Shown here: piece after piece, positions 4,040 to 53,720 of the stretch
Layout: every line of letters starts with the position of its first letter
Position numbering within the stretch: the stretch's first letter is position 1
NCBI GenBank assembly: GCA_000018565.1
Contig: CP000875.1
Location: forward strand, 313,199 to 377,198
Source: Herpetosiphon aurantiacus DSM 785
GTDB lineage: Bacteria; Chloroflexota; Chloroflexia; Chloroflexales; Herpetosiphonaceae
Direction: 5' to 3'
DNA: 64,000 bases
The notes under the pieces: generated by a model
What the model was told of the DNA's origin: nothing
Databases searched by the model: none
What the model saw: only the letters and a program-made list of their open reading frames with translations
Translations under genes and position numbers: made by a program

Positions 4040-6229
4040 ATGCAACGCATTGGCTTTCCAACCTTCACTACACCATTGATTGGCCGCGATGCCGATGTTG
4101 CAGCGCTAGTAACACGTTTGCGCCAATCGCCAACCCGTTTTACCACTTTGCTCGGCCCAAGTGGCACTGGCAAAACCCGCCTGAGCATTCAAATTGCTGA
4201 TCGTTTGCACGCTGAGTTTCGTGATGGCGTGGCCTTTATTTCGTTAGCAACCCTCGACGACCCCGATTTGGTGATTCCAACAATTGCCCGCACATTTGGC
4301 TTGGCTGAACGCGGCAGTTTGGTGTATGAAGAAGCTTTAGTGCAATTTTTACGCGAACGTCAATACTTAATTGTGCTCGATAATATGGAGCAAGTGATCG
4401 AGGCTGCGCCGCATGTGATTGGCTTGCTCAGCCAAACCGAGCATGTGCGAGTGCTGGTAACCAGCCAACAAGCTGCTAATGATCCCCAAGAAGAAGTTAT
4501 TCCAATTCCACCATTGGCGATTCCGCTAGGCGGTGGCTCAGTCCAAATCGAAACTATCAGCATGAGTCCAGCGGTGGCACTCTTTTTGGATCGGATTCGG
4601 CGCGTGCGACCCGAATTTATGCTTGATCCCAATAATGCGTTGCATATTGTCGAGATTTGTCGGCGTTTGCGCGGCTTGCCCTTGGCGATTGAGTTGGTAG
4701 CAGCGCATAGCGATAAACTACGCCCCGCCGATTTGCTCTTGTTGTTGCGCAATTATCTGCCTGCTGAGCAAAATGTGGGAGCCGCGCCAGCCCCCGAACA
4801 AGTGTTACACCCCGTTTTGGATTGGTGTATTTCGTATAGTATTCCGGCGATTCGCTGGTTGTTGCCGCGCTTGGGGGTCTTTCAAGGCGAATGGACGCTG
4901 AACCAAGTTCAATTATTGGCCAACGAAGCGCCTAACACAATTGATATTGCCAAAACGCTCGAAGCTATGGTTGCCAAAGGCCTGCTGCTGAGCAACGCCG
5001 CCTCAGAAGAACCAACCTATAGCATGCTCGATACAATTCGCCAATATGCGGCCCGCCAACTCAAGCGCAATGCCCAACTCGACCATGCTTGTCACGAGCT
5101 GCATGCGAAGGCTTTTCAACAATTGGCAATCGATATTGATACTGGCATTCGCCAAGGTCAAGGCATGGTCTGGAGCAAATGTCTGAATCAAGCGATGCCC
5201 AATGTGCGCAGTGCTTTGCAATGGCTATATCAACAACAACGCTACAGCGAGATTGCCCGCTTAATTTCGAGCATGGTATTGCCGTTGTTTCAACAAGGCT
5301 ACATTCGCGAAGGATTAAGCTGGATCGCCCGCATTGGGGCACATGCTGCTAGCTTCGAGCCGGAAATTCAACTGCATTTTGGCTATGCCAATGGGCTGCT
5401 TTCCTATGCAATCAGCGATTATCCCTCGGCCTTGCAGGCCTATGGTGCGGCGCTGACCCATGCCAAAACCCTCGGCGATTTGGATTATCAAGCGCGTTTG
5501 TTGAACAATCAAGGCATGATTTACGCCGAGCAAACCAATTATGAGGCGGCCCGCCAAGCCTATGAAGCGGCCTTAACGATTCGCCAACAACAATCCAATG
5601 TTTGGGGCGAGGCGATTATTTTGAACAATCTTGGCTCAGTCACCCAATTTCAAGCTGAACACCAAGCCGCTCGTGAGTATTTCCAAGCAAGTTTGGCAAT
5701 TTACCAGCAAATGGGTGACCAAATGAGCCAAGCAGTCTCGTTTCAAAATATTGCTGGCACCCATTTGAATATGCACGAATATGCCGAGGCTGAGCACTTA
5801 TATCGTGAGAGCATCGCGATTCATCGCCAAAACGAAGAATCGCCACCATTAATTATGGCCTTGTATGGGTTGGGTTTGGCCTTGCTGCGCCAGAATGCTG
5901 ATGAACGACGTGAATCGGGCGAAGTGCTGCATCAAGCAGTCACGATGGCGGCGCGACTGAATGTCCAACGTTCATTGGCGATTGCTTTCGAAGGCTTTGC
6001 TGAATGGTTGGCGACTAGTAACCCTGAGCATGCGGCCTATTTGGTCGGCGGTGCGGCCAGTTTGCGTAATGCCTGCGATGTTGGCTACTCAGCAGTTAGT
6101 TGGCGCGACATAACCAGCTTGCGCGAACAGCTTGATCGCAACTTGGGTCAGGCTGAGCGGCAAGCCGCCGAAGCCACAGGCGAAGCCTTGAGCCAAGCCG
6201 AATTGCTGCTGCTGGTTTCTCAAGCCTGA
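4040..6229 (+). CDS. STAND-class P-loop NTPase (NB-ARC-like) with C-terminal TPR repeats
   Basis: It has a Walker A motif (LGPSGTGKTRL) and multiple TPR-like repeats (YANGLLSYAISDYPSALQAY and similar). No HTH is evident. Its 3' end overlaps the convergent marR by 10 nt. Confidence 0.7.
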   Translation: MQRIGFPTFTTPLIGRDADVAALVTRLRQSPTRFTTLLGPSGTGKTRLSIQIADRLHAEFRDGVAFISLATLDDPDLVIPTIARTFGLAERGSLVYEEALVQFLRERQYLIVLDNMEQVIEAAPHVIGLLSQTEHVRVLVTSQQAANDPQEEVIPIPPLAIPLGGGSVQIETISMSPAVALFLDRIRRVRPEFMLDPNNALHIVEICRRLRGLPLAIELVAAHSDKLRPADLLLLLRNYLPAEQNVGAAPAPEQVLHPVLDWCISYSIPAIRWLLPRLGVFQGEWTLNQVQLLANEAPNTIDIAKTLEAMVAKGLLLSNAASEEPTYSMLDTIRQYAARQLKRNAQLDHACHELHAKAFQQLAIDIDTGIRQGQGMVWSKCLNQAMPNVRSALQWLYQQQRYSEIARLISSMVLPLFQQGYIREGLSWIARIGAHAASFEPEIQLHFGYANGLLSYAISDYPSALQAYGAALTHAKTLGDLDYQARLLNNQGMIYAEQTNYEAARQAYEAALTIRQQQSNVWGEAIILNNLGSVTQFQAEHQAAREYFQASLAIYQQMGDQMSQAVSFQNIAGTHLNMHEYAEAEHLYRESIAIHRQNEESPPLIMALYGLGLALLRQNADERRESGEVLHQAVTMAARLNVQRSLAIAFEGFAEWLATSNPEHAAYLVGGAASLRNACDVGYSAVSWRDITSLREQLDRNLGQAERQAAEATGEALSQAELLLLVSQA

Positions 6230-6717
6230 TTTGGCTCTAAATCGAGCAGCCAACAGCGTAACAGCGTGGCTAATTGTTCGCGCTGCTCGCTACTCAAACT
6301 GGCAATCAAGCGTTGTTCGTTGGCTAGATGCGCCTCGACGGCTCGATTGATCAGATCTAAACCCTCAGCTGTCAGCTGCACCAACAGGCTACGCCGATCG
6401 TGCGGATCGGGAATGCGCTCGATCAAGCCACGATCGGCCAAGCGATCAAGCCGATTGGTCATGGCTCCTGATGAGAGCATCAAGGTATTGAACAAGGCGG
6501 TTGGGCTACGCTGATAGGGCGCTCCTGACCGCCGCAAACTTGCCAGCACATCAAATTCCCCGCGTTGTAAGCCAAATTGGCCGAATATCCGCGCCAAATC
6601 ACGGCTCAAATGTTGTTCCAATCGCGCAATCCGCCCAATCAAGCCCATCGGCGTAGCATCAAGTTCTGGTCGTTCGCGCTGCCACTCAGCAATAAAACTA
6701 TCAACTTGGTCGTGCAT
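6220..6717 (-). CDS. MarR-family transcriptional regulator
   Basis: It has a winged-helix MarR signature (ASLRRSGAPYQRSPTALFNTLMLSSGAMTNRLDRLADRGLIERIPDPHDRRS). Confidence 0.8.
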   Translation of the reverse strand: MHDQVDSFIAEWQRERPELDATPMGLIGRIARLEQHLSRDLARIFGQFGLQRGEFDVLASLRRSGAPYQRSPTALFNTLMLSSGAMTNRLDRLADRGLIERIPDPHDRRSLLVQLTAEGLDLINRAVEAHLANEQRLIASLSSEQREQLATLLRCWLLDLEPNQA

Positions 6718-6724
6718 AGATTAT

Positions 6725-6845
6725 CTCGATATAAAGATACTTGGCATGAAGATAGATTATATCTTGATGTCAAGATACATTGTCAATACCATCAGCATAG
6801 CATATCTGGGTGCTGGTGAAATCTAGCGAAGTTTGTGTTGATCGG
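6725..6845. promoter_or_regulatory. marR promoter/operator region with inverted repeats; homologous copy upstream of eamA at 21325-21450
   Basis: It has inverted repeats (CTTGGCATGAAGATA / TATCTTGATGTCAAG, and ATCTTGA-TG-TCAAGAT). On the minus strand a TTGACA-N19-TATAAT promoter reads into marR. Confidence 0.5.
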
Positions 6846-6869
6846 CTAATGATGGAATATGCTCTTTGA

Positions 6870-7366
6870 TTACCCGAATCGGCGGCTGGAGGATTGGATT
6901 TTAGCGCTAGTGGGGGATGATTGGCTATAGTGTGTAGGCTGGTTGGTTATCTCGAATGCTGCATCCAAATCACTGCCTTTCATTTCCCTGTTTTGGTGAG
7001 CCAGCGGCGCACCAATTAATGTTGCAACGTTGGCAACGAGGTCGGTAAAACTGGCCGGAAGTTCGAGCACATCGCAGCCAGCTGCTTGCCTTGAATAAAG
7101 GCATGATCAACCGTCGTAACCAGAACGGGGATCTGCACCGTATTCGGATCAAAATGGAGTAATTTAAGTAATGGCCAGCCTGGGGCGGATGCTTGAAGGC
7201 CTACATCGAGAATAATTAAACTCGGTTGACTATCCCGTAACTGTTGATAGGTCAGGTCGGTGGTCAGGTAGGTGGTTGTAGCATAGCCTGCTTCGAGCAA
7301 GAATTCCTGTAATAAATCCAATAACGCCACATCATTATTGACAACGGCAATCGTTTGGGGCACCAT
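6870..7366 (-). pseudogene. Stand-alone CheY-like receiver domain gene, copy A, disrupted by a 16-bp deletion (frameshift)
   Basis: The first 94 aa are identical to the intact copy B (11569-11982) apart from V13L and F22L. A 16-nt deletion relative to copy B splits the C-terminus into a second frame (ORF 6870-7070). Confidence 0.5.
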
Positions 7367-7397
7367 AGGATGCTTCTTTATTATGGACTCGCGCTTA
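6998..7397. repeat. Direct repeat DR-A (~400 bp, ~97% identical to 11597-12009)
   Basis: I aligned the two copies by eye. They include the receiver gene, the upstream CATAGGATGCT(T/C)CTTTATTATGGACT leader, and the 3' flank. Confidence 0.8.
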
Positions 7398-7512
7398 CGG
7401 GCATTAACGGCATGATAGATCTAAGCTTGATGCGTATGGGGAATTTACTTTTAGTTCCTGATGTGGTAACTCCACGGATAGTCCACATGGCTCTCATTGT
7501 GTATCACGTTCG

Positions 7513-7941
7513 TTATGACGCTTCGGGTTCGGGGTTATCTGTATCGACCAATCCATGACGGATGGCCTCGCGAGCTCGTTCCGACAATCGTTGATATGTC
7601 GCCCGAATCTGGTCTAACTCGTCCTCTTCCAACTCCTCCAGATCAAGAAGCGCATTATGAGCACCCTGCGTTGCACGGATCAATTCATCAAGCTTGATTT
7701 GAATGGCTTCTGAATCGCGCGTCTGTGTATTTTGAATCAGAAAGACCATAAGAAAGGTAATAATCGTTGTGCTCGTATTAATCACCAACTGCCATGTATC
7801 GCTCCAGCCAAACAGTGGTCCACTAATCATCCACAGGAAGATCACCCCGACCGCAAGACCAAACGTCCTTGGTCGTCCCGTGATATGGGCAGTCCACTTG
7901 GAGACTTGGGTAAACCGTGACTTCGTTTTGACGCTGTACAT
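7513..7941 (-). CDS. Low-affinity iron permease family (PF04120-like) small membrane protein
   Basis: The motifs WSDTWQLVINTSTTIITFLMVFLIQNTQTRD and IQIKLDELIRA match the family consensus. Confidence 0.6.
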   Translation of the reverse strand: MYSVKTKSRFTQVSKWTAHITGRPRTFGLAVGVIFLWMISGPLFGWSDTWQLVINTSTTIITFLMVFLIQNTQTRDSEAIQIKLDELIRATQGAHNALLDLEELEEDELDQIRATYQRLSERAREAIRHGLVDTDNPEPEAS

Positions 7942-8225
7942 ACCATATCCTTTCTATGGTACCGATGGCGGGGATGGGATAAAGACCGGCATCTCACACC
8001 AGCCGTCCTCAAAAAACCATAGGCACGTTACGTGATCTTCGGCACAAAGACATCAACTCCCAGAACTACGATTGCTGGACATCCTTGCATTGCACACCAC
8101 TAAGTCGTCAATGTGGAAGCGAATAAAGCCAACCCGAGCACCTAGGCGCTTCACCTACAACGCCTCAATAATGCGGCGAACGCATAGATTCGGAAAATGT
8201 GACTCTTCATCTTCCCAGGCACGAT

Positions 8226-8921
8226 CTAGACAGCTGTCCCAAAGATCGCTCCAACGCCAGCCGTTAATGCCATCGCAAGCGCACCCCAAAACGCCACCCG
8301 CATGGCACCGACAATAATGGACGAACCACCGGTATAGGCAGCCAATATTCCCAGCAGCGTGAGGAATATGAGTGAGGTTCCCGTTACCAAAACAACGAGA
8401 TAGGAATTAGCCGCAAGCACGGCGGTCATCAGCGGGAGTATCGCGCCAACGGCAAAGGCAGCCGCCGACGCAAGCGCTGCTTGGATGGGACGGGCACTCA
8501 TGGTTTCGGAGATCCCAAGTTCATCACGGGCGTGGGCCGCGAGTGCATCCTTCAGCATCAATTGCTCGGCGACTTGCTCAGCGAGGGATGCGTCAAGGCC
8601 ACGGCGACCATAGATGGCTGCCAGTTCCGCACGTTCGGCGTGGGCATCCACGGCGAGTTCCATGCGCTCACGGTCAATATCCGCTCGTTCCGTATCTGCC
8701 TGGGAACTGACCGATACATATTCGCCTGCGGCCATGGACATTGCCCCTGCAACCAAGCCAGCAATGCCGGCCACGACCACCGACTGATGGGATGCATTTG
8801 ATGCGGCCATCCCAACCACCAGACTGGCAGTTGAGACAATCCCATCGTTTGCGCCTAAGACTGATGCACGCAGCCAGCCGATATGCTGGGTTCGATGCTG
8901 TTCTCGATGTGACGTGACCAT
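8226..8921 (-). CDS. VIT1/CCC1 family iron/manganese transporter
   Basis: It has the LGANDGIVSTASLVVGMAAS signature. It has an N-terminal ferritin-like (Er/DUF125-like) part and a C-terminal TM part. An AAGGAG RBS precedes it. Confidence 0.75.
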   Translation of the reverse strand: MVTSHREQHRTQHIGWLRASVLGANDGIVSTASLVVGMAASNASHQSVVVAGIAGLVAGAMSMAAGEYVSVSSQADTERADIDRERMELAVDAHAERAELAAIYGRRGLDASLAEQVAEQLMLKDALAAHARDELGISETMSARPIQAALASAAAFAVGAILPLMTAVLAANSYLVVLVTGTSLIFLTLLGILAAYTGGSSIIVGAMRVAFWGALAMALTAGVGAIFGTAV

Positions 8922-9168
8922 GGTGACTCCTTTGGAATCCAGGGAGCGGGTGAACCCCGTGTCTCTGATTCTCAGCGCAATACGCTCAGTGTGCCTTCCG
9001 CTTCACCAAGTCAGGAGCAGGTTGCACCAAGCAGTGGATCAGTATGTTGATCGATCATGGTGTATGCCTATGCCCGCTCGATCAGCGATGAGCAGCGCCT
9101 TGCACGACACACATCGATCCGATTACATGCAGAGCAGACGCGATGAACTACTGTCAGCCTTTGCACGG

Positions 9169-9729
9169 TTACACACTGACAGGCTGGATGCCAAAGCGTG
9201 CTGCGACCTCGGGGGTAATCAATCCTCGGAGCGCATAGCCAAGTCCGGTGATGATGAGGCCGAGGATGAAGAACCCGAGGCCGAGGGCCATCGCACCGTA
9301 GGATGCGCCGAGCGCCATTGCCGACAAACTGAGTGAGGTCACGAGACCCGCCGCAGTGAGTTGAGTCGTGCGTGCTTGGTTTGCCACAGGCTGACCCTTC
9401 GCATCCTTCAATGCCGCATCAACGGTATTCGTGCCAGATGGGTCGCCGCTGGCAACGGCAAAACGACCCATCTGGGCATAGGATAATCCATTGGAGCTGT
9501 CAGCGGCATGATGCTGAATAAGTGCGGCCATGCTGAGCGCAGTTGCGATCCCGGTTACTGGGGCATTCGGGATCGAGGCATCCGCTGGGGTTGTAATCTG
9601 TTGGGAACGGAGTTGCTCAGCGACGAACCTATTGATAAAGATGCCAGCGCCTGTGGTGACCAATCCACCACAGGTAAAAAGAACGCCGATCACCATAACG
9701 AGCGTTGGAAAGAGTCGTATCGTTTTCAT
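9169..9729 (-). CDS. Membrane protein, TM segments at both ends (hypothetical)
   Basis: A GAGGAGG RBS precedes it. There are hydrophobic N- and C-terminal segments. Confidence 0.45.
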   Translation of the reverse strand: MKTIRLFPTLVMVIGVLFTCGGLVTTGAGIFINRFVAEQLRSQQITTPADASIPNAPVTGIATALSMAALIQHHAADSSNGLSYAQMGRFAVASGDPSGTNTVDAALKDAKGQPVANQARTTQLTAAGLVTSLSLSAMALGASYGAMALGLGFFILGLIITGLGYALRGLITPEVAARFGIQPVSV

Positions 9730-9805
9730 CCCGACCTCCTCGCTGCAATGCAGCGGTCATCGTGGTCCGATTGCTGTGGTACTTGTAGGCTCCCCGCAGG
9801 TCGAA

Positions 9806-10242
9806 TTATGACTCCACCGTCGTTTGCGCCATGGTGATTGACTCCATGTGATGGACGGTCAAGAGCATCGTGCTCGCGATCTCGGCCCGCACACTATGCG
9901 CAATGGCGGGATTGAGGAACAGGATCTGTCCCGCATCCAAGCGATGATCATTCCCTGCGATCTGGATGCTCAACCTGCCGTTCAGTACCTGAATACTGAC
10001 GATTCCTTGGGCAACATGATCGGGAAGTTCACCGCCCGCATCAAAGACAAATAAGACGAGCGTGACTGGGGCTTGACGGAACAGGGTTATCTGCCGATGC
10101 CCGTGGATCGCGGGATGCACCTCATTCACGAGGTGATCGACAGCATCGGCAAGATGCAGAATCTGATTGTTGCCGATACCGCGTGTGATGGGATGGTCGC
10201 GGAGCCGAGGTGCTCCGTTGGGGACGGGAATAGGGTCGATCA
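9806..10242 (-). CDS. Cupin-domain protein
   Basis: There is a His-rich metal-site-like motif (HPAIHGHRQ). I chose the ATG at 10242 as the start because it has an AAGGAG RBS. Confidence 0.5.
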
Positions 10243-10747
10243 TAGTAACTCCTTGGATACGGATACGTGCCAATAGGCAGAGCATCGGACAGCCCTCCGT
10301 ATCGATTGCGATAGCCTACGTGCGACAGCAGTCTCCGTGGTTTCGGACACAAGCAGATCGGTGAGCGTTGGATTAAGCAGGGTATGACGACGGATGCGGG
10401 TGGGTGACTCTCCAAGAGCACGGAGGGGCATGTGGGAGCCATGGGTTGTCGGATACCAGCTGAGCGATTGTCTATTCAATCGTGCCATATCATGGCACTG
10501 TATCGTTGTCTTCCTGAAATGCTGACGGCACGAGGAGGCAGAATCCACCTTCGGTATTCCAGACATCTCGATCACCACGATCGTTTCCTGACAACCCATC
10601 TTGGGTGGATGATACTACCGCTTCATCGTGACAAACCGCAGCATGTGAAGTATTAGTAGCAGGACTACTGATATTGTTTTGGTTATACGGTAGGATATAC
10701 CATGGTGGTTGTTTCATCGAGAATTCCTTTCTGGGAGGCATCGGTGA

Positions 10748-11101
10748 TCAACATCTGCTATCCTTATGCATATAGTCTTGTTCTATGGGGACGGCCATGC
10801 TTTGAGGGGGACTTGTTCTGATAATCATCGCAGCGTTAATCCCCGCAGCAATCAGTGGCTCAGTAATTCCTGCCGCCGTCGTATCATGATGAATCCAAAT
10901 GATTCCGTCCCGATATTCTAGGTGCAGTAAACAATGATGGATACGATGGTGACCGTTCCATCCAATAACAATGACGAGATAGCGATGCTGATAAGGGTCA
11001 AAAATGGTTTGGAAACTATAGTTTCCATAGGCATACGGAATGCAGGTTTGTTCCGTTAAGACCAGTTCAAGGATTGTGCAGGGGCTTGTGCAGGTATCCA
11101 T
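10748..11101 (-). CDS. xisI: XisI-family protein (FdxN-element excision-controlling factor-like)
   Basis: It has the YLVIVIGWNGHHRIHHCLLHLEYRDGIIWIHHDTT...PLIAAGI signature typical of XisI (PF08869). It overlaps the 3' end of xisH. Confidence 0.75.
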   Translation of the reverse strand: MDTCTSPCTILELVLTEQTCIPYAYGNYSFQTIFDPYQHRYLVIVIGWNGHHRIHHCLLHLEYRDGIIWIHHDTTAAGITEPLIAAGINAAMIIRTSPPQSMAVPIEQDYMHKDSRC

Positions 11102-11490
11102 TGAATTGACTCCTCTTGGGTTGCATCAACCACAATAAACCGCATCTGATAAGCCGAACGTAAGAGATCCCTCAGCGGTGCGACTAACAAGGCCGTAAAT
11201 AGAGCTCGATCAAGCGCACAGTAGAGCGTACACATCGGGTCAAGTCGTCCAAGAATTGCTTGTGTCACTAAGGCTTGCCCCAAGAAGCATGTCAATGGTG
11301 GTACGCTACTGTCATCGTGCGGAGGGTAGATCGCAATCGCGATAGAACTATGGCTGTTGCTATTTGCCGCAAGATCAAGTTGGCTTTCGATCCCATACCA
11401 GAGCATACGTAATGGTTGATGGGTGATTAACCATCCCTGCCGTTCTAAGGCTGGAATCAAGATGGAAGACATGGTTGTATGAGACAACAT
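11056..11490 (-). CDS. xisH: XisH-family protein (PD-(D/E)xK-like endonuclease fold)
   Basis: It matches XisH: ALERQGWLITHQPL compared with ALxKDGWTITHDPL, and it has a C-terminal FIVVD...ESIQW motif. I chose the MLSH start because an AGGAG lies 9 nt upstream. The ORF-track start at 11520 is probably too long. Confidence 0.7.
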   Translation of the reverse strand: MLSHTTMSSILIPALERQGWLITHQPLRMLWYGIESQLDLAANSNSHSSIAIAIYPPHDDSSVPPLTCFLGQALVTQAILGRLDPMCTLYCALDRALFTALLVAPLRDLLRSAYQMRFIVVDATQEESIQWIPAQAPAQSLNWS

Positions 11491-11568
11491 CTTTCTCATC
11501 TCCTGCATGGAATGGGGCACACTTCGCCTTTCGGTAGGTAACCTATATTGAATTGATTACCCTTGGAT

Positions 11569-11982
11569 TTATGGTGGATCGCTTGTCGGTATGATTCGAG
11601 CCAGCGGCGCACCAATTAATGTTGCAACTTTGGCAACGAGGTCGGTAAAACTGGCCGGAAGTTCGAGCACATCGCAGCCAGCTGCTTGTAAAAAGGCTTG
11701 CTTACCTTGTATAAAAGCATGATCAACCGTCGTAACCAGAACGGGGATCTGCACCGTATTTGGATCAAAATGGAGTAATTTAAGTAATGGCCAGCCTGGA
11801 GCGGATGCTTGAAGGCCTACATCGAGAATAATTAAACTCGGTTGACTATCCCGTAACTGTTGATAGGTCAGGTCGGTGGTCAGGTAGGTGGTTGTAGCAT
11901 AGCCTGCTTCGAGCAAGAGTTCCTGTAATAAATCTAATAATGCCAAATCATTATTAACAACAGCAATCGTTTGGGGCACCAT
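11569..11982 (-). CDS. Stand-alone CheY-like receiver domain protein (intact copy B)
   Basis: The phosphoacceptor is in IILDVGL, with T in VLVTTVD and K in IQGKQ. The first acidic position is N (NND). Confidence 0.7.
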   Translation of the reverse strand: MVPQTIAVVNNDLALLDLLQELLLEAGYATTTYLTTDLTYQQLRDSQPSLIILDVGLQASAPGWPLLKLLHFDPNTVQIPVLVTTVDHAFIQGKQAFLQAAGCDVLELPASFTDLVAKVATLIGAPLARIIPTSDPP

Positions 11983-12009
11983 AGGATGCTCCTTTATTAT
12001 GGACTAGCG
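11597..12009. repeat. Direct repeat DR-B (partner of 6998-7397)
   Basis: Alignment by eye. It has 16 extra nt relative to DR-A. Confidence 0.8.
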
Positions 12010-12107
12010 TAGGCAGCAATTGTCTGCGCATTGTGATCGATGCGGAAATTCCGCAGCCGATCATGGTTTCCGCTTGCATTGGGCCAGCCCAACGCAAGCG
12101 GGATGGA

Positions 12108-12317
12108 TTAGGCATACGACTCCGGTTGACTCTCGGCGGTGCGCGTAGAGGATGGGTCAACCAGCCTCAGTCGCATTGGTCGGAGGGTCGTAACCCGCAG
12201 CGACGAATGACACGTCGCACAGATCACGATGCTGCCGCAATGCAAGACCCCCGAGAGTCCTTGTTTAGCACGACAGACGGGACAGGCAACCACGGTTATG
12301 CGCGCATAGGTGCTCAT
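12108..12317 (-). CDS. Zinc-ribbon small protein (two CxxC pairs)
   Basis: It has CPVC...CATC pairs. Its start overlaps the stop of the upstream LapA-like gene by 4 nt. Confidence 0.4.
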   Translation of the reverse strand: MSTYARITVVACPVCRAKQGLSGVLHCGSIVICATCHSSLRVTTLRPMRLRLVDPSSTRTAESQPESYA

Positions 12318-12699
12318 ACCGTGCGCTTTGGCGCATCATCGATCCATGGATCAAGGCGCTCACCGGTTTGTGGATTATAGTGTTGTGGCCCAGCCTCGAC
12401 GGCGAGTGGCATGGTTGTTGGTGGTGGCATCGCAGCATCAATTGGAATCAATGGTCGTTGGACAGGAGTGGCCTGCCCACGCTCGCGGAGGTTCGTATAG
12501 TAGGTCTCGATCTGGCGTGGAAAGGCAAACAAGCCAACCACCAGCATCCCACTGGCCAAGGCAGCCAATAGGAGCATCCATAGAGGCAAGGCTGGTGTTT
12601 GCCAATCGAAGAGGTGAATCGAAATCGCCGTTGTGTTTTGGAAGCCGATTGCTGCAAAGAGCAAGATTAAGATTCCAGTAATGATGCCAAGAATGGCTT
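12314..12699 (-). CDS. LapA-domain (DUF1049-like) small inner-membrane protein
   Basis: The protein starts MKAILGIITGILILLFAAIGFQN. An AAAGGAG RBS precedes the ATG at 12699. Confidence 0.5.
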
Positions 12700-13424
12700 T
12701 CATGAGGAGGACTCCTTTGCCCATGGTCGCACTGTGCTGCATGCTGAGGAGCTGGATATTGATCCAACCATTCCAACAACGCAGGAACAGGAATTCCACG
12801 GCAATAGTAGATCCATTCAGGAGCAGTTCCTGAATAGGTGGTAGGTGGTGCAGCCATCGATGACGATGGAGACACGCAACCCATAGATGTGGGTTATCAC
12901 CATATAAGAGAAGGGGAACTCGGTGTGATAGGATAACCAACGGTTATCGATGGGGGAGTGGCCGAGTTGAGGAGCACGATGCGCTTGAAGTGATACACAA
13001 GAGCATCTACGTATCACTATAGCACGCTTTCCATAATAAACAAGCTGCTGTTATCGTTTCGCCTCAACAATCATGTCTGAACCCGCTGCCTTGATATCGA
13101 TCCCTCACCCCTTGGGATAGGGACTTTACAGAGCTATCTATCGAGCGTACTCTTTCGGATGTAGCCGCATGCTTCCTATGTCATCGCCACCTGATGACTT
13201 ATTCTTCCCACACTTTTCTTCAGTTGTTGGTGTGATTCGCCCAATCTCTATGGGTGGGATCACGACCCGCAAAGCTCTACGATGCTCACCAGATGCACCA
13301 CCGAAAACCCTTGCCCAACCAAGTACTGATAGATAGCAGCGAAGGTCAGCTGTTTGAGGCCATCTGCTGTGCTTGGATTAGCGAATGGGTTATAGGTGTA
13401 TCTTGGTTATGGAGGAACTTCCCT

Positions 13425-15511: not shown

Positions 15512-16723
15512 TTGATGAAGCCGAATGGGATGCAGATCTTATTCATTGACCATGATGGGCATGGCATACCCATTATTGCGTCGATCATCACGGCAATTCA
15601 AACCGTCCAGTATCGCCTGATTGCGGTCTCCGACCTCCACCATGGCCTGAGTATGCTGGCAACTCGCCGGATCGATGCTATCTTGGTGCGACTGTCACTG
15701 ACGGATAATACCGGCATGATCATCCAAACGCTGTCTGATCATGCATCAACCTATCCACTCATTCTCTCCTCCCCAAATACCGATGATCACACCTTGATCC
15801 CTATGCTGCACGGCGGGGTTCATGCCACGCTGTTTGACGATGAACTTACGCCAGCACTGTTTCAGCGGACACTCGACTATGGGTTTGCCCGCGTCGCTCA
15901 ATTAGCGGCAGAAGATCATGTCCAAACGCTCACCAGCACGCTGGCAGTGGCGCTTGATACAACCCATCAGATTGAACATCATCTGGCAATTGCGATTCAT
16001 GAACTCCAAACGCCCATCAGTATTTTGCTCGGCTATATTGATCTATTTGAGCGACGAGTTGCGACATGGGGTGGAATTCCCCTACGCGAACGGCAAATGA
16101 TTAATACGATGCGGATGCAAGCGATTCATGTAGGACGATTGGTTCCAACGTTGCTTGATAGCACGCTGATGACGCACGAGCTTGGGCCGATTCAGCGGCG
16201 TTCGCTTGAACTGAGTGCGGTGCTGCGAACGGTCGTTGGAGCAATGCAAGGCATGCGAGCCTCGCATCTGTTGGTGTTGCGGGTGCCCGATGCAGCTGTA
16301 TGGATTGAGGGCGATTATGGGCGCTTAGTTCAAATTTTTCAGAATCTCTTGCTCAATGCCCTGCACTATAGCGGCATGCATAGTGAAATTACCATCACCC
16401 TCGCTGCTGATGGGCAGATCACCATTCAGGATTATGGGGTCGGGATCTCCGCTGATGCCCTTGTGCAAATTGCGCGTCCATTTTTTGACACTGCTGATCC
16501 CCATGGAGCGGCACGGATTGGTCAAGGACTTGGCTTGGCCATTGTGCAAGAACTCATCCAGCAACACGAGGGCAGCATCACGATCGCCAGCACGGTAGAT
16601 CATGGAACAACCATCACCATCCAATTTCCCTGGAGTGTTCGGCCAACCCGTCTACCGGAACATCCTGCATCAATGCCGGTGAACTATCCCACCATTACTG
16701 ATATTCAAGGGAGCACGCTATGA
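15512..16723 (+). CDS. Sensor histidine kinase with N-terminal degenerate receiver-like domain
   Basis: It has an H-box (IAIHELQTPISILLGYIDL) and HATPase_c motifs (NLLLNALHYSG, DYGVGIS, GQGLGLAIV). The start may be at 15530. Confidence 0.75.
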   Translation: MMKPNGMQILFIDHDGHGIPIIASIITAIQTVQYRLIAVSDLHHGLSMLATRRIDAILVRLSLTDNTGMIIQTLSDHASTYPLILSSPNTDDHTLIPMLHGGVHATLFDDELTPALFQRTLDYGFARVAQLAAEDHVQTLTSTLAVALDTTHQIEHHLAIAIHELQTPISILLGYIDLFERRVATWGGIPLRERQMINTMRMQAIHVGRLVPTLLDSTLMTHELGPIQRRSLELSAVLRTVVGAMQGMRASHLLVLRVPDAAVWIEGDYGRLVQIFQNLLLNALHYSGMHSEITITLAADGQITIQDYGVGISADALVQIARPFFDTADPHGAARIGQGLGLAIVQELIQQHEGSITIASTVDHGTTITIQFPWSVRPTRLPEHPASMPVNYPTITDIQGSTL

Positions 16724-16992
16724 AAAAACGTTCTGTTCTGCTCTGGCTAAGCCTGATTGGTGGGCTGATGCTACTGGGTAGTGCTAGCCCACAACCACAG
16801 GTGACGATTGGTGGTCTGACCATTCCCGTGTGGCAGATGCTCATGGCGATCGTTCTCACCATGCTGAGTGGATTAGTGCTGCGGTTCATAGCTCACCAAT
16901 ATCATGAGTATCGCACACTCTACAACCACCCCCCCACCCATTGGAATCAATGGCCAGACGATCCGCTGCCATCGAAACCGAGCATTCGCTAA
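16720..16992 (+). CDS. Small membrane protein, translationally coupled to the kinase (ATGA overlap)
   Basis: There is a signal/TM segment (MKKRSVLLWLSLIGGLMLLG) and a second TM segment. Confidence 0.45.
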   Translation: MKKRSVLLWLSLIGGLMLLGSASPQPQVTIGGLTIPVWQMLMAIVLTMLSGLVLRFIAHQYHEYRTLYNHPPTHWNQWPDDPLPSKPSIR

Positions 16993-17020
16993 CCCAACGA
17001 CTATTTCGGAAGGAGGCGTT

Positions 17021-17332
17021 ATGGTGGCCTGTTCTACCACCACGATCATTGAAACAGTGCTGATCGCAACGCTATGTCCTGACACGACGGGAACATGTGC
17101 CGTACAAACTGTGTTTGACCGCGAGCAACAGCATTATATGGTGGTGGTTGCTGGTTGGCACGGACAGCATCGGATTCATCGTTGTCTTGTGCATATCGCC
17201 TATCACGATGAGCGGGTTTGGATTCATTGTGATCATACAATCCATGGGATTCCTGAGCGCTTAATCGCCGCAGGGATTCCTGCCACCCGCATTTTGCAGG
17301 TTTTTCCGCTGGCTGGCCTACGCATGCCCTAG
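17021..17332 (+). CDS. Orphan XisI-like protein
   Basis: It has the YMVVVAGWHGQHRIHRCLVHIAYHDERVWIHCDHT...RLIAAGIP signature. A GGAGG RBS lies before the ATG at 17021. There is no adjacent xisH. Confidence 0.65.
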   Translation: MVACSTTTIIETVLIATLCPDTTGTCAVQTVFDREQQHYMVVVAGWHGQHRIHRCLVHIAYHDERVWIHCDHTIHGIPERLIAAGIPATRILQVFPLAGLRMP

Positions 17333-23438: not shown

Positions 23439-23562
23439 CTAGCTCTCCTTTTGTTTGCATTAGGTTTATAGTATAGCTGTAATGGTTTATCGCATTAACA
23501 ACCGCCAGCGTTCCCTCACCCCCTGACCTTTCAAGGATAGGTTTTTAACAATGATTGCGCAT

Positions 23563-23636
23563 CACCACCCTTCCGTCCCGCCTCAAGGCGGGAGACGCAG
23601 GGGGCTTTAATCCCCCTGCACCCCCTCAAGGGCAAT
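23563..23636. repeat. Double-hairpin repeat R1 copy 1
   Basis: The sequence CACCACCCTTCCGTCCCGCCTCAAGGCGGGAGACGCAGGGGGCTTTAATCCCCCTGCACCCCCT recurs at 53584-53649 with the apical loop flipped. Confidence 0.75.
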
Positions 23637-32033: not shown

Positions 32034-33568
32034 TAACTATTCGATTTGGCAAATGGCAGATACATTCGGAAATTGAGGTTTGGTACAACCGTTGGTGTAC
32101 GGCTGGGGGTTATTGTCGCGGTTGGGGTGCGACTAGGCGTTATCGTGATGGTAGCTGGTGTGCCAGTCGAGGTACGGGTTGGGGTGTTGCTTGGAGTTGC
32201 GGTTGCAGTCCGCGTTGCTGTCGCAGTTGGGGTGCGCGTAATCGTCGGTGTGATAGTTGGGGTTGCCGTGCCGCCAGTGCCACTTTGGGCCATTTCATAT
32301 AAATTGGGAAAATTGCCCGTGAGTAATAACATGCTCAGCAAGCGCCAAGCATTGGGATAATAGCTGTTGGGCGTATCTTTGGTGGCGAGCACCGCATTGT
32401 ATGCTTGTTGCGGTGTGGTTTTGAGGCTGGCAGTTGCCGCACCACAATTGACTGCTTGCGGAGCTGGAGCCGCCCAAATTGCCGCCGCTGCGTTGGCGAC
32501 GAAGAATACGCCACGATAATTATCAACTGATGTGCCGTCAAGCCGATAGCGAGCTTGAATGTTGTCAATGCCCACGCTGCTGAAAAAACCACCAATTTCG
32601 TTCATGGTTTCGCGTGAGTTGCTGGTGTTGTACCACGCTTTGTCGATCGCGATGCGCCATGCAAACCGCGCTGCATCGTAGCTCCACCACGCCGATTCTT
32701 CTGGTTGCCACGATACATATTGCACATCGCCGTCATATTGATTCCAATTGGGCACAAGTTTCGAGCAATTGCCTGCTTTGGCTTGCACCAAATTGGTGAT
32801 AGCGTAGTTACGGGTGTTGACGGCGGCCCATTCAGTATTTTTGTTGGTGAATTTGCCAAAGACCGTGCTATAGCCAGGTGAAAAATAAGAAAGATTAACA
32901 ATACCTTGAGTATATTCGGTCGCGGTTGACCATGAATCACCTGGCAGTAGTTCGTTGCCTTGGTTATTGGGCAAGCCGGCGGGTGGGTTGCTGCCAGCAT
33001 GATCAACTTCATAGGTATAAATATTGTTGATCATGGTGCTGGCAAGCGTGCAATAATTCAGGCCATTGCTGCTAGCGGGCCAAACTCCTTGTTGCACTTT
33101 GATACAGGCATTGACCAGTCCCATGGCAATATCTTCATCGCCATCGGTTGCTGCGCCGCTGCCATTAATTTGGCCTGGATTGCCGATGTGCCAATGCATC
33201 AGGCCGCGGCTGGTAAAATAATCACGAGTGAAAAGCCACAAACCGTCGAAGGTTGCTTGATCATCGAATAATGAGGCGAAAAGCAAGCCATAGCCTTGGC
33301 CCTCAGAGACCGTGGTGCTATTGCTAACTCCGCCGAGTACCCGCAAACGTCCGCCACCACCAGCGTTGTTGCTGGTAATTTGAGCACTTTTCCATTCATT
33401 CCAAGCTTGAGTGAGATCGGTCACATTGTAGTTAATGCCCGAAGCTTGATTATAGGGAAAGCTAAATGCTTGCGGATTGGCGCTGGCCGATTGCTGACGG
33501 GGCAAGCTAAGGCCGAGACCAACCAACATAACCAAAATAAGCCAACGCGAGTGCAATGCTTGCTTCAT
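32033..33568 (-). CDS. GH8 family glycoside hydrolase (endoglucanase-like) with signal peptide and Pro/Thr linker but no CBM
   Basis: It has GH8 catalytic signatures (TVSEGQGYGLLFA, ATDGDEDIAMGLVNA). It is a paralog of 33652-35481. It ends with a PT-linker plus a 19-aa tail. Confidence 0.8.
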   Translation of the reverse strand: MKQALHSRWLILVMLVGLGLSLPRQQSASANPQAFSFPYNQASGINYNVTDLTQAWNEWKSAQITSNNAGGGGRLRVLGGVSNSTTVSEGQGYGLLFASLFDDQATFDGLWLFTRDYFTSRGLMHWHIGNPGQINGSGAATDGDEDIAMGLVNACIKVQQGVWPASSNGLNYCTLASTMINNIYTYEVDHAGSNPPAGLPNNQGNELLPGDSWSTATEYTQGIVNLSYFSPGYSTVFGKFTNKNTEWAAVNTRNYAITNLVQAKAGNCSKLVPNWNQYDGDVQYVSWQPEESAWWSYDAARFAWRIAIDKAWYNTSNSRETMNEIGGFFSSVGIDNIQARYRLDGTSVDNYRGVFFVANAAAAIWAAPAPQAVNCGAATASLKTTPQQAYNAVLATKDTPNSYYPNAWRLLSMLLLTGNFPNLYEMAQSGTGGTATPTITPTITRTPTATATRTATATPSNTPTRTSTGTPATITITPSRTPTATITPSRTPTVVPNLNFRMYLPFAKSNS

Positions 33569-38386: not shown

Positions 38387-41161
<2,775 letters not shown>

Positions 41162-53502: not shown

Positions 53503-53583
53503 TCCATGTTGATAGTTTGCAATCCTTTCGCCCCTTCGTCGGAGGGAAATACGGGAGGTGTTGCTTTTCAAGGGTAGATTTGA

Positions 53584-53649
53584 TCACCACCCTTCCGTCC
53601 CGCCTCAAGGCGGGAGACGCAGGGGGATTAAAGCCCCCTGCACCCCCTA
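53584..53649. repeat. Double-hairpin repeat R1 copy 2 (loop flipped relative to 23563-23636)
   Basis: It has identical arms. The apical loop is ATTAAAG versus CTTTAAT. Confidence 0.75.
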
Positions 53650-53720
53650 AAAGTACAATTAGTGATAGCCTGTGGTTGATTGATAAACTTCAAACTAAGC
53701 GTTAATTCCTTATTCTTAGT

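What the first reader, a model, noticed from the sequence alone, without database searches (positions are those of the whole stretch)
6998..12009. 400-bp near-identical direct repeats (each carrying a CheY-like receiver gene) flank a 4.2-kb cassette with xisH/xisI and metal transporters
DR-A (6998-7397) and DR-B (11597-12009) are ~97% identical and in direct orientation. Between them lie a low-affinity iron permease, a VIT1/CCC1 transporter, a membrane protein, a cupin, and an overlapping xisH/xisI pair. Homologous recombination between the repeats would excise the cassette as a circle and leave one receiver gene. XisH and XisI were originally described as factors controlling excision of a developmentally deleted element. 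Copy A of the receiver carries a 16-bp deletion that frameshifts its C-terminus. This could be decay, or it could be a sequencing or assembly artefact in a repeat.
Basis: partly seen in the sequence, partly recalled or inferred. Interest (0 to 1): 0.6.

Follow-up and report, generated by a model that had tools for sequence, protein, structure and literature searches.

The report
Decaying gene duplicate flanks deletable cassette
Two ~400-bp copies of a receiver gene (one intact, one a truncated decaying duplicate) bracket a 4.2-kb metal-transporter/xisHI segment in Herpetosiphon aurantiacus, and a sister strain has lost exactly that segment by recombination between the copies; this is ordinary genome plasticity, not an xisH/xisI-driven excision system.

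Summary
Direct repeats lie at 6998-7393 and 11598-12009, with 13 substitutions and one 16-bp gap. They bracket genes for an iron permease, VIT1, a membrane protein, a cupin, XisI and XisH. The window is the finished Sanger chromosome of Herpetosiphon aurantiacus DSM 785. More than ten independent Illumina assemblies of the same strain reproduce both copies, their flanks and the 16-bp deletion, so it is not an artefact.

Copy B is the ancestral, conserved gene. Copy A is a duplicate that lacks the last 29 nt. It is shared with H. gulosus, where it is also a pseudogene. The copies are more alike within each species than the A copies are between species, which indicates gene conversion. The closest relative (LCH85 MAG, 326-kb contig) has LapA, a single hybrid receiver and MarR, with breakpoints exactly at the repeat ends. 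That is the predicted deletion product, and it is itself pseudogenised.

The xisH/xisI link is unsupported. No XisF-type recombinase lies nearby. The pair also occurs in a relative that lacks repeat A, and it was lost alone in another. "Circle-junction" contigs in public mock-community assemblies are most likely assembler chimeras.

Verdict: a known kind of event (homologous deletion plus gene conversion). Interest is low.

The parts
6998..7393 (-). Direct repeat copy A: a truncated duplicate of the receiver gene (27 nt of 5' leader plus the CDS without its last 29 nt)
   Evidence: The A-type flanks on both sides are shared with H. gulosus, so the duplicate predates the aurantiacus/gulosus split.
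7016..7366 (-). Receiver A ORF (116 aa, ABX02923.1). A 16-bp deletion after window 7088 shifts the frame. Pfam Response_reg scores 25.9 bits, below the 30.2 cut-off.
   Evidence: The deletion is reproduced in 10 independent assemblies. It is absent from gulosus copy A and from LCH85.
7394..7461 (-). 68-nt spacer between the end of shared synteny (7461) and repeat A. It is shared with H. gulosus, but H. geysericola and NSE202 have unrelated sequence here.
7513..7941 (-). Low-affinity iron permease (PF04120)
   Evidence: E 1e-52
8226..8921 (-). VIT1/CCC1-family transporter (PF01988)
   Evidence: E 4.5e-64. A degraded paralogue lies on plasmid pHAU01.
9169..9729 (-). 186-aa membrane protein with no family assignment. 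It has been deleted independently in H. gulosus and in the plasmid paralogue.
9806..10285 (-). Cupin-like protein (weak Cupin_2 and AraC_binding matches)
9835..10216 (.). 382-nt stretch identical to plasmid pHAU01. It is a branch point in short-read assembly graphs.
   Evidence: Contig ends fall at 9961, 10090 and 10216. The downstream genes are ABX07814-17 on the 339,639-bp plasmid.
10748..11101 (-). xisI homologue (PF08869)
   Evidence: E 5e-21
11056..11520 (-). xisH homologue (PF08814, PD-(D/E)XK fold family). It overlaps xisI by 46 nt.
   Evidence: E 6e-13. Family background from PMC3424549.
11569..11982 (-). Receiver B (137 aa, ABX02929.1). This is the ancestral, conserved copy with the native C-terminal tail.
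   Evidence: The orthologues differ mostly by synonymous changes (18 syn: 3 nonsyn vs gulosus; 42: 14 vs llansteffanensis).
11598..12009 (-). Direct repeat copy B
6220..6717 (-). MarR-family regulator. It forms the right flank and becomes the receiver's neighbour in the deletion allele.
12314..12940 (-). LapA-domain membrane protein. It forms the left flank and is conserved next to the receiver in all six Herpetosiphon genomes compared.

Best explanation
Receiver B (11569-11982) is the original gene. With the downstream block xisH-xisI-cupin-membrane protein-VIT1-iron permease, it forms an arrangement older than H. aurantiacus.

In the common ancestor of H. aurantiacus, H. gulosus and the LCH85 lineage, a 412-bp piece of this gene was duplicated to a site 68 nt beyond the end of the block, next to marR. 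The piece comprises the leader and the CDS minus the last 29 nt. The mechanism of this duplication is not resolved.

The duplicate (copy A) is non-functional and decaying. It has a foreign 3' tail in all lineages, a 16-bp frameshift in DSM 785, and a stop plus indels in H. gulosus.

The two copies stay similar through intrachromosomal gene conversion. Because they are direct repeats, with up to 118 bp of uninterrupted identity, they are also a substrate for ordinary RecA-type crossover. A crossover deletes 4.6 kb (one repeat plus the 4.2-kb cassette), presumably as a non-replicating circle.

That crossover became fixed in the LCH85 lineage. It left a hybrid B-5'/A-3' receiver that has since been pseudogenised.

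xisH/xisI are passenger genes of the cassette and play no part in this.

Shown: the anatomy, the orthology of copy A, the concerted-evolution pattern and the natural deletion allele. Inferred: RecA dependence, a circular by-product, and any ongoing excision in DSM 785.
For: 1. The structure is real. The window is the finished DSM 785 chromosome. Independent Illumina contigs cross A with both flanks (L006-L015), cross B with both flanks (L001-L004) and cover the interior (L039 = window 11620-7800 at 100%).
2. B is ancestral. H. geysericola, NSE202, H. gulosus and H. llansteffanensis all have LapA followed by a receiver with the B-type tail (ARxxPxxxP), including H. llansteffanensis, which has no cassette. 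Orthologue differences are mostly synonymous.
3. A is an old orthologous duplicate. H. gulosus has a copy between the iron permease and marR (L033 5305-5694) with the same 5' spacer and the same 3' tail sequence as aurantiacus A. It carries 12-nt and 4-nt deletions and a TAA stop.
4. Gene conversion. Substitution counts are aurA-aurB 13, gulA-gulB 26 and aurA-gulA 35. At eight sites gulA = gulB and aurA = aurB, but the two species differ.
5. Natural deletion. In L031 (326-kb contig) and L032 (independent Logan contig), the order is LapA, one receiver, then MarR-NB-ARC-CAP-PrmC. B-flank homology ends at 11598 and A-flank homology begins at 7393. The alleles are B-like through the 16-bp segment and then A-like, apart from one A-like site (col 125, Val13) inside the B-like part.
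6. Polarity. Flank identities give (((aur, LCH85), gul), (gey, NSE)), lla, so the cassette-less state is nested among cassette-bearing genomes.
7. The LCH85 sample has only one contig with the conserved 32-mer of the receiver. No LCH85-type VIT1 was found.
Against: - No read-level evidence of excision or circles in DSM 785.
- The hybrid contigs in mock-community assemblies (L021-L028) cannot be trusted (see the full report).
- The LCH85 allele comes from metagenome assemblies. A collapsed repeat is unlikely but is not excluded by read data.
- LCH85 has one A-like site (Val13 codon) inside the B-like part, so its history is not a perfectly clean single switch.
- The event that created copy A is not reconstructed. 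There is no microhomology or target-site duplication at its borders.
- The tree rests on about 1 kb upstream (six taxa) and about 5.7 kb downstream (three taxa) of flanking DNA, not on whole genomes.
Confidence: 0.75

Rival explanations
1. Programmed or site-specific excision. The cassette would be a developmentally or conditionally excised element, like the Nostoc fdxN element. Its own XisH/XisI would control a recombinase that acts at the repeats.
For: - xisH and xisI are present inside the repeat-flanked segment.
- The host is a filamentous multicellular bacterium.
- A cassette-less relative exists.
Against: - In Nostoc, XisH and XisI act together with the serine recombinase XisF (PMC4874684). 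Pfam lists for about 10 kb on each side show no recombinase of any class.
- The same xisHI pair occupies the same position in H. geysericola, which lacks repeat A. In NSE202 it was deleted alone.
- Excision does not restore a gene. It replaces the native 3' end with a foreign tail.
- 400-bp repeats with scattered SNPs are not att-like core sites.
- PADLOC and Pfam give nothing further.
Confidence: 0.03
2. Insertion rather than deletion. LapA-receiver-MarR (the LCH85 state) would be ancestral. A circular element carrying a receiver fragment plus the cassette would then have integrated by a single homologous crossover (Campbell type), creating the two repeats at once.
For: A single crossover between a circle and the chromosome gives exactly this topology, with direct repeats flanking the insert. 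Part of the cassette has a 100%-identical 382-nt counterpart on plasmid pHAU01 next to a resolvase, so the block does move between replicons.
Against: - Campbell integration would place the native 3' end on the marR-proximal copy. Instead the tail conserved across the genus is the B-type tail, next to xisH. This includes cassette-free H. llansteffanensis.
- The geysericola/NSE202 clade has the cassette after B without copy A or marR.
- LCH85 is nested inside cassette-bearing taxa.
- The LCH85 receiver carries an aurantiacus-A-specific allele at its 3' end.
Confidence: 0.08
3. Assembly artefact. The two repeats, or the 16-bp indel, would result from mis-assembly. The true genome would have one receiver gene, or would have the copies at unlinked loci.
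For: - Short-read assemblies break or go chimeric inside the cassette, at 9961, 10090 and 10216.
- One 72-kb JGI contig (L001) joins the B side to different downstream genes.
Against: - The alternative path is the plasmid pHAU01 paralogue (ABX07814-17), so L001 is a chromosome-plasmid chimera.
- L039 spans 11620-7800 at 100% identity.
- L006 and nine other contigs span the iron permease, copy A with the deletion, and MarR.
- The reference is a finished Sanger genome with fosmid ends, and its reads are longer than the repeat.
Confidence: 0.01
4. No natural deletion. The LCH85 contig would be a collapsed-repeat assembly of a genome that still carries the cassette. The repeats would then only be a static old duplication kept similar by gene conversion.
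For: The same kind of contig (L022, LapA-hybrid receiver-MarR) is produced artefactually from DSM 785 DNA in a mock-community assembly. In that sample the cassette is clearly present (L040 comes from the same sample).
Against: - Independent assemblies give the same junction: two 326-kb versions (JGI and NCBI) and Logan k-mer contigs seen in 3 samples, which would break at a true repeat.
- Only one contig in the JGI collection carries the conserved receiver 32-mer.
- No VIT1 at least 82% identical from that sample or MAG was found in a 5.8-billion-protein database. No contig from that sample carries the exact DSM 785 protein.
- The hybrid has private inactivating mutations.
Confidence: 0.07

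Closest known systems
RecA-dependent deletion between long direct repeats (duplication- or IS-flanked deletions in bacterial chromosomes)
   Same: There are two direct repeats of about 400 bp at 97% identity, with a 118-bp perfect stretch. The natural deletion allele keeps exactly one hybrid copy, and its breakpoints lie at the repeat ends.
   Different: The repeats are a gene and its truncated pseudogene copy, not IS or rRNA operons. No frequency, recA dependence or circular product has been measured.
Concerted evolution of duplicated genes by intrachromosomal gene conversion (for example tufA/tufB in enterobacteria; recalled from general knowledge, not tested here)
   Same: Paralogues within a genome are closer (13 and 26 substitutions) than the orthologous A copies between species (35). 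Species-specific alleles are shared by both copies.
   Different: One partner is a pseudogene, so conversion is not maintained by selection on both copies. Conversion could also spread defects, such as the 16-bp deletion, into the functional copy.
Nostoc/Anabaena PCC 7120 fdxN element (XisF with XisH and XisI)
   Same: It contains an overlapping xisH-xisI pair, sits in a filamentous bacterium and is bounded by direct repeats.
   Different: There is no XisF or other recombinase. The repeats are 400-bp homologous segments and not short core sites. Excision does not reconstitute an interrupted gene. The xisHI pair is also present where only one repeat exists, and it was lost alone in NSE202.
Campbell-type integrated circle or genomic island
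   Same: The topology matches: an insert flanked by direct repeats of a chromosomal gene segment. The cargo consists of accessory metal-transport genes, part of which is also on a plasmid.
   Different: There is no integrase. The native gene end is on the wrong copy for this model. The cassette is older than the second repeat.

Membership tests
Homologous-recombination deletion substrate (direct repeats) | Two direct repeats long and similar enough for RecA-type recombination | tested here: met
   There are 396/412 nt with 13 substitutions. The longest perfect stretch is 118 bp, 7185-7302.
Homologous-recombination deletion substrate (direct repeats) | A deletion allele with one hybrid repeat and breakpoints at the repeat borders | tested here: met
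   In L031 and L032, B-flank homology ends at 11598 and A-flank homology starts at 7393. The alleles are B-like and then A-like. The state is derived according to the flank tree.
Homologous-recombination deletion substrate (direct repeats) | Reciprocal circular product, or recA dependence | not testable with these tools
   Iron permease-receiver-xisH junction contigs exist (L021, L023-L028). They come from assemblies that also make multi-switch mosaics and chromosome-plasmid chimeras.
Concerted evolution by gene conversion | Orthologous duplicates (same flanks in two species) whose interiors are more alike within species than between species | tested here: met
   The flanks of gulA and aurA are shared. 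Substitution counts are 13 and 26 within species against 35 between species.
XisF/XisH/XisI developmental excision element (fdxN type) | xisH and xisI genes present | tested here: met
   PF08814 scores 49.5 bits and PF08869 scores 75.6 bits.
XisF/XisH/XisI developmental excision element (fdxN type) | Cognate large serine recombinase (XisF) in or next to the element | tested here: not met
   The Pfam lists for all called genes about 10 kb either side contain no Resolvase, Recombinase or Phage_integrase family. The cassette ORFs were scanned.
XisF/XisH/XisI developmental excision element (fdxN type) | Excision restores an interrupted functional gene | tested here: not met
   B is intact without excision. 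The product acquires the foreign A tail and is a pseudogene in LCH85.
XisF/XisH/XisI developmental excision element (fdxN type) | xisHI co-occur with the element borders across relatives | tested here: not met
   H. geysericola has xisHI but no repeat A. NSE202 lost xisHI but kept the rest.
Response regulator receiver domain (PF00072, CheY-like) | Profile match above Pfam's gathering score | tested here: inconclusive
   B scores 30.9 bits against a cut-off of 30.2. A scores 25.9 bits, below the cut-off.
Response regulator receiver domain (PF00072, CheY-like) | Phospho-acceptor Asp, acidic pocket and conserved Lys | tested here: not met
   This was read from the alignment to receiver 3t6k. Asp54 is present. 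The pocket reads N-N-D instead of D-D-D. Leu108 replaces the Lys of the K-P motif. FrzS-type pseudo-receivers are among the best PDB matches.
Integrase-mediated genomic island | Integrase gene and short att repeats at a tRNA or gene 3' end | tested here: not met
   There is no integrase. The repeats cover nearly the whole gene.

The most novel reading that the evidence does not exclude
In living H. aurantiacus filaments the cassette might be excised at appreciable frequency, possibly helped by the PD-(D/E)XK protein XisH making breaks near the repeats. This would yield subpopulations that lack the iron/manganese transporters and carry a receiver with a switched C-terminus. It would be a recombinase-free, homology-driven phase-variation-like switch. 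The hybrid junction contigs in mock-community data would then be partly real.
Probability: 0.04. Interest if true: 0.6.

Novelty: new member of a known kind. Interest (0 to 1): 0.2.

Why it matters
This is a clean, small natural example with every stage preserved in one genus:
- the ancestral gene alone (H. llansteffanensis);
- the gene plus cassette (H. geysericola, NSE202);
- the addition of a truncated duplicate (H. gulosus, H. aurantiacus), with gene conversion between the copies;
- the recombination product that deleted the cassette (LCH85).

Three practical points follow:
1. xisH/xisI homologues outside heterocystous cyanobacteria should not be read as markers of an excision element.
2. 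Public mock-community assemblies and protein databases contain chimeric "recombinant" contigs and proteins from this locus. They mimic excision junctions.
3. The accessory Fe/Mn-transport block is strain-variable and is partly shared with plasmid pHAU01.

None of this changes current understanding of recombination.

Tried and rejected
- Hybrid contigs as evidence of excision were rejected. All PRJEB12287, JGI Ga0168xxx/Ga0169xxx and Logan ERR1254xxx contigs derive from a mock community containing ATCC 23779 DNA. Some show 2-4 allele switches (L019, L020, L028). The same assemblies make chromosome-plasmid mosaics (L001, L013, L023, L029; proteins P0043-45). Sample ERZ926318, which gave the "deletion" contig L022, also holds the cassette (L040).
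- A protein-pattern scan of JGI metagenome contigs with the receiver found nothing usable. An exact 32-mer scan then found only the LCH85 contig.
- PLSDB searches with the variant locus and with the window found no Herpetosiphon plasmid. The plasmid origin was established from accession names instead. An attempt to fetch the plasmid's upstream context returned only mock contigs that start at the branch node.
- PADLOC gave no hit for XisH, XisI, the cupin, the membrane protein or the receiver.
- I inspected both borders of copy A and the 16-bp deletion for microhomology or target-site duplication and saw none.
- I considered gene conversion of an old divergent paralogue as the origin of A. This is disfavoured: the homology includes 27 nt of 5' leader and ends abruptly, with no residual similarity outside.

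Full report
**1. The observation.**
Repeat finding, pairwise alignment and self-BLAST agree on one direct repeat. Copy A is 6998-7393 and copy B is 11598-12009. There are 13 substitutions over 396 shared positions (96.7%) and one 16-bp gap in A after position 7088.

All genes in 6220-12940 are on the minus strand.
- MarR 6220-6717
- receiver A 7016-7366 (116 aa)
- low-affinity iron permease 7513-7941
- VIT1 8226-8921
- a 186-aa membrane protein 9169-9729 with no family
- a weak cupin 9806-10285
- XisI 10748-11101, overlapping XisH 11056-11520
- receiver B 11569-11982 (137 aa)
- a LapA-domain protein 12314-12940

The repeat stops 29 nt before the stop codon of B. Copy A therefore lacks the native C-terminal nine codons whether or not it carries the 16-bp deletion.

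**2. Source of the window, and whether it is an artefact.**
Exact look-ups identify receiver A as ABX02923.1 and receiver B as ABX02929.1 of Herpetosiphon aurantiacus DSM 785 / ATCC 23779, on a 6,346,587-bp record. That genome is finished: 11x Sanger, 3-kb, 8-kb and fosmid libraries (PMC3368417).

Many metagenome contigs match the window at 100%. They come from study PRJEB12287 (Schirmer et al. 2016, PMC4787001). That study sequenced the Shakya mock community, which contains H. aurantiacus ATCC 23779 (PMC4712552). These contigs are therefore independent re-sequencings of the same strain.
- Ten of them cross copy A with both unique flanks and carry the 16-bp deletion.
- Five match copy B at every site; four of these (L001-L004) extend into unique sequence on both sides.
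- L039 covers 11620-7800 at 100%.

The structure and the indel are real.

**3. A trap in the public data.**
The same assemblies also contain contigs that look like recombination products:
- iron permease-receiver-XisH, the "circle junction" (L021, L023-L028);
- LapA-receiver-MarR, the "deletion" (L022);
- A-flanked copies with a B-type interior (L019, L020).

I do not count these as evidence, for three reasons. Several need two to four allele switches. The sample that yields L022 also yields the cassette (L040). The same assemblies produce mosaics between the chromosomal VIT1 and a 95%-identical paralogue (L013, L029, proteins P0043-45).

That paralogue lies on plasmid pHAU01. It consists of the 3' end of the cupin gene, a deleted membrane-protein gene and a truncated VIT1. 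Next to it are a P-type ATPase, a pRiA4-ORF3 protein and a resolvase (ABX07814-ABX07817, longest record 339,639 bp). It shares 382 nt of exact identity with window 9835-10216. This explains why MEGAHIT contigs end at 9961, 10090 and 10216. It also explains why the 72-kb JGI contig L001 switches from chromosome to plasmid.

**4. Comparison with relatives.**
Gene orders were read:
- H. llansteffanensis: LapA, receiver, then unrelated genes.
- H. geysericola: LapA, receiver, XisH, XisI, cupin, membrane protein, VIT1, iron permease, then integrase and Tn3 fragments.
- Herpetosiphon sp. NSE202: the same, but xisH-xisI are reduced to a 39-codon remnant, followed by a subtilase.
- H. gulosus: LapA, receiver, XisH, XisI, cupin, (membrane-protein gene deleted), VIT1, iron permease, a degraded second receiver copy, MarR, NB-ARC/TPR, CAP, PrmC.
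- LCH85 MAG (JGI Ga0209460_1000024, 326 kb; also Logan contigs): LapA, one receiver, MarR, NB-ARC/TPR, CAP, PrmC, with no cassette.

In every species the receiver next to LapA has the B-type tail (ARxxPxxxP). Orthologue differences are mainly synonymous (18:3 against gulosus, 42:14 against llansteffanensis). B is therefore the ancestral gene and is under selection.

**5. Copy A is an old, orthologous pseudogene kept similar by gene conversion.**
The second copy in H. gulosus has the same 68-nt upstream spacer and the same downstream tail sequence as aurantiacus A. The duplication therefore happened once, before these species split. The gulosus copy carries a 12-nt deletion, a 4-nt deletion and a TAA stop, but it retains the 16 bp that DSM 785 copy A lacks.

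The substitution counts are aurA-aurB 13, gulA-gulB 26, aurA-gulA 35 and aurB-gulB 21. At eight sites both gulosus copies share one base and both aurantiacus copies share another. Paralogues that are closer than orthologues, despite orthologous flanks, are the signature of intrachromosomal gene conversion.

**6. A natural deletion.**
In the LCH85 contig, homology to the window's B side runs to 11598 and homology to the A side starts at 7393. These are exactly the repeat borders. Its single receiver has the B-type 5' flank and B-type alleles through the 16-bp segment. It then has an aurantiacus-A-specific allele (the Asn119 codon) and the A-type 3' flank. One A-like site lies in the 5' part. 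It is inactivated by a CAG-to-TAG change at codon 78 and by two 1-nt deletions.

Flank identities:

| Region | Pair | Identity |
|---|---|---|
| Upstream | aur-LCH85 | 97.8% |
| Upstream | aur-gul | 96.1% |
| Upstream | LCH85-gul | 95.5% |
| Upstream | gey-NSE | 96.3% |
| Upstream | all others vs lla | ~88% |
| Downstream | aur-LCH85 | 95.5% |
| Downstream | aur-gul | 92.9% |

These give (((aurantiacus, LCH85), gulosus), (geysericola, NSE202)), llansteffanensis. The cassette-less state is therefore nested among cassette-bearing genomes and is derived.

Several observations argue against a collapsed assembly:
- Only one contig in the JGI collection carries a 32-mer conserved in all receiver copies.
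- Logan contigs cross the gene without breaking.
- No VIT1 from that sample appears among all database proteins at least 82% identical, and no contig from it carries the exact DSM 785 VIT1.

**7. xisH/xisI.**
In Nostoc PCC 7120 these genes are needed, together with the serine recombinase XisF, for fdxN-element excision. Their exact role is unclear (PMC4874684). XisH belongs to the PD-(D/E)XK superfamily, and the Herpetosiphon homologue groups with cyanobacterial ones (PMC3424549).

Here no recombinase gene lies within about 10 kb on either side. The pair is present where repeat A is absent (H. geysericola), and it was lost alone in NSE202. A further orphan xisI-like gene lies at 16904-17332. 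They behave as dispensable passengers.

**8. Mechanism and rivals.**
The best-supported account has three steps:
- an ancient truncated duplication of the receiver gene;
- gene conversion between the copies;
- occasional RecA-type crossover that deletes the 4.6-kb interval, fixed once in the LCH85 lineage.

I estimate confidence in this account at about 0.75.

The rivals fare as follows:
- Campbell-type insertion is disfavoured. The genus-wide native tail sits on the LapA-proximal copy, and the cassette predates copy A.
- Programmed XisHI-dependent excision fails three of four defining features.
- Mis-assembly is excluded by independent data.

Three things remain unshown: any excision in DSM 785 itself, the circular by-product, and the event that created copy A.

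**9. Verdict.**
The recombination prediction is borne out by a natural allele. The xisH/xisI interpretation is not supported. The phenomenon is a textbook kind: homologous deletion and concerted evolution between a gene and its pseudogene copy. Interest is low (0.2), and I classify it as a new member of a known kind.

Noticed in passing
window 9835-10216 (and 8216-9129 at 84-96%); L001 12279-20414, L035: Plasmid pHAU01 carries a degraded copy of the block from the 3' end of the cupin gene to VIT1. The membrane-protein gene is deleted and VIT1 is truncated. It sits next to a P-type ATPase, a pRiA4-ORF3 protein and a resolvase (ABX07814-17). The 382 nt that are 100% identical to the chromosome suggest recent chromosome-plasmid exchange or gene conversion. 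The chromosomal metal-gene part also has higher G+C (0.54-0.59) than its surroundings (0.47-0.50).
   Followed up: partly
L001 (JGI Ga0169454_100394), L013, L019-L029; proteins P0034, P0035, P0037, P0039, P0042-P0045: Public mock-community assemblies (PRJEB12287 and the JGI re-assemblies, Logan) contain chimeric contigs. Derived "proteins" mix the two receiver copies, or the chromosomal and plasmid VIT1 genes. These are now members of public protein clusters and could be mistaken for natural recombinants.
   Followed up: yes
window 16904-17332 (+): A second, orphan xisI-like gene (PF08869, 69.5 bits) lies about 5.5 kb from the xisH-xisI pair, with no Pfam-detectable xisH beside it. It is conserved in the same place in L016, L017, L018 and L031.
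   Followed up: partly
window 9169-9729; L033 3466-3600; L001 ~12278: The 186-aa membrane-protein gene has been deleted independently, with different breakpoints, in H. gulosus (window 9685 to 9263) and in the plasmid paralogue (9705 to 9130).
   Followed up: partly
L017 10463-10790: In Herpetosiphon sp. NSE202 the xisH-xisI pair is reduced to a 39-codon xisH remnant, while the neighbouring genes are intact.
   Followed up: yes
window 11569-11982: The receiver is atypical. The acidic pocket reads N-N-D, and Leu replaces the conserved Lys of the K-P motif. FrzS-type pseudo-receivers are among its best PDB matches. It may not be phosphorylated. A HisKA/HATPase_c kinase gene lies 3.5 kb away (15512-16723, +).
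   Followed up: partly
window 7461; L016 14503-20411; L017 13597-16097: The DNA just downstream of the iron-permease gene is a rearrangement hotspot, and three different continuations occur in three lineages. In H. geysericola it holds a tyrosine-recombinase fragment and a Tn3-transposase-like fragment. This identification is by eye from the ORF translations and was not scanned.
   Followed up: partly
window 32288-33459 vs 34201-35373; 33653-33993 vs 38388-38728; 23561-23629 vs 53583-53651: The self-BLAST shows other internal repeats. One is a 1.2-kb pair at 78% identity with related 240-340-nt pieces (a paralogous gene family). Another is a 69-nt repeat at 94% identity that also occurs in L031.
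   Followed up: no
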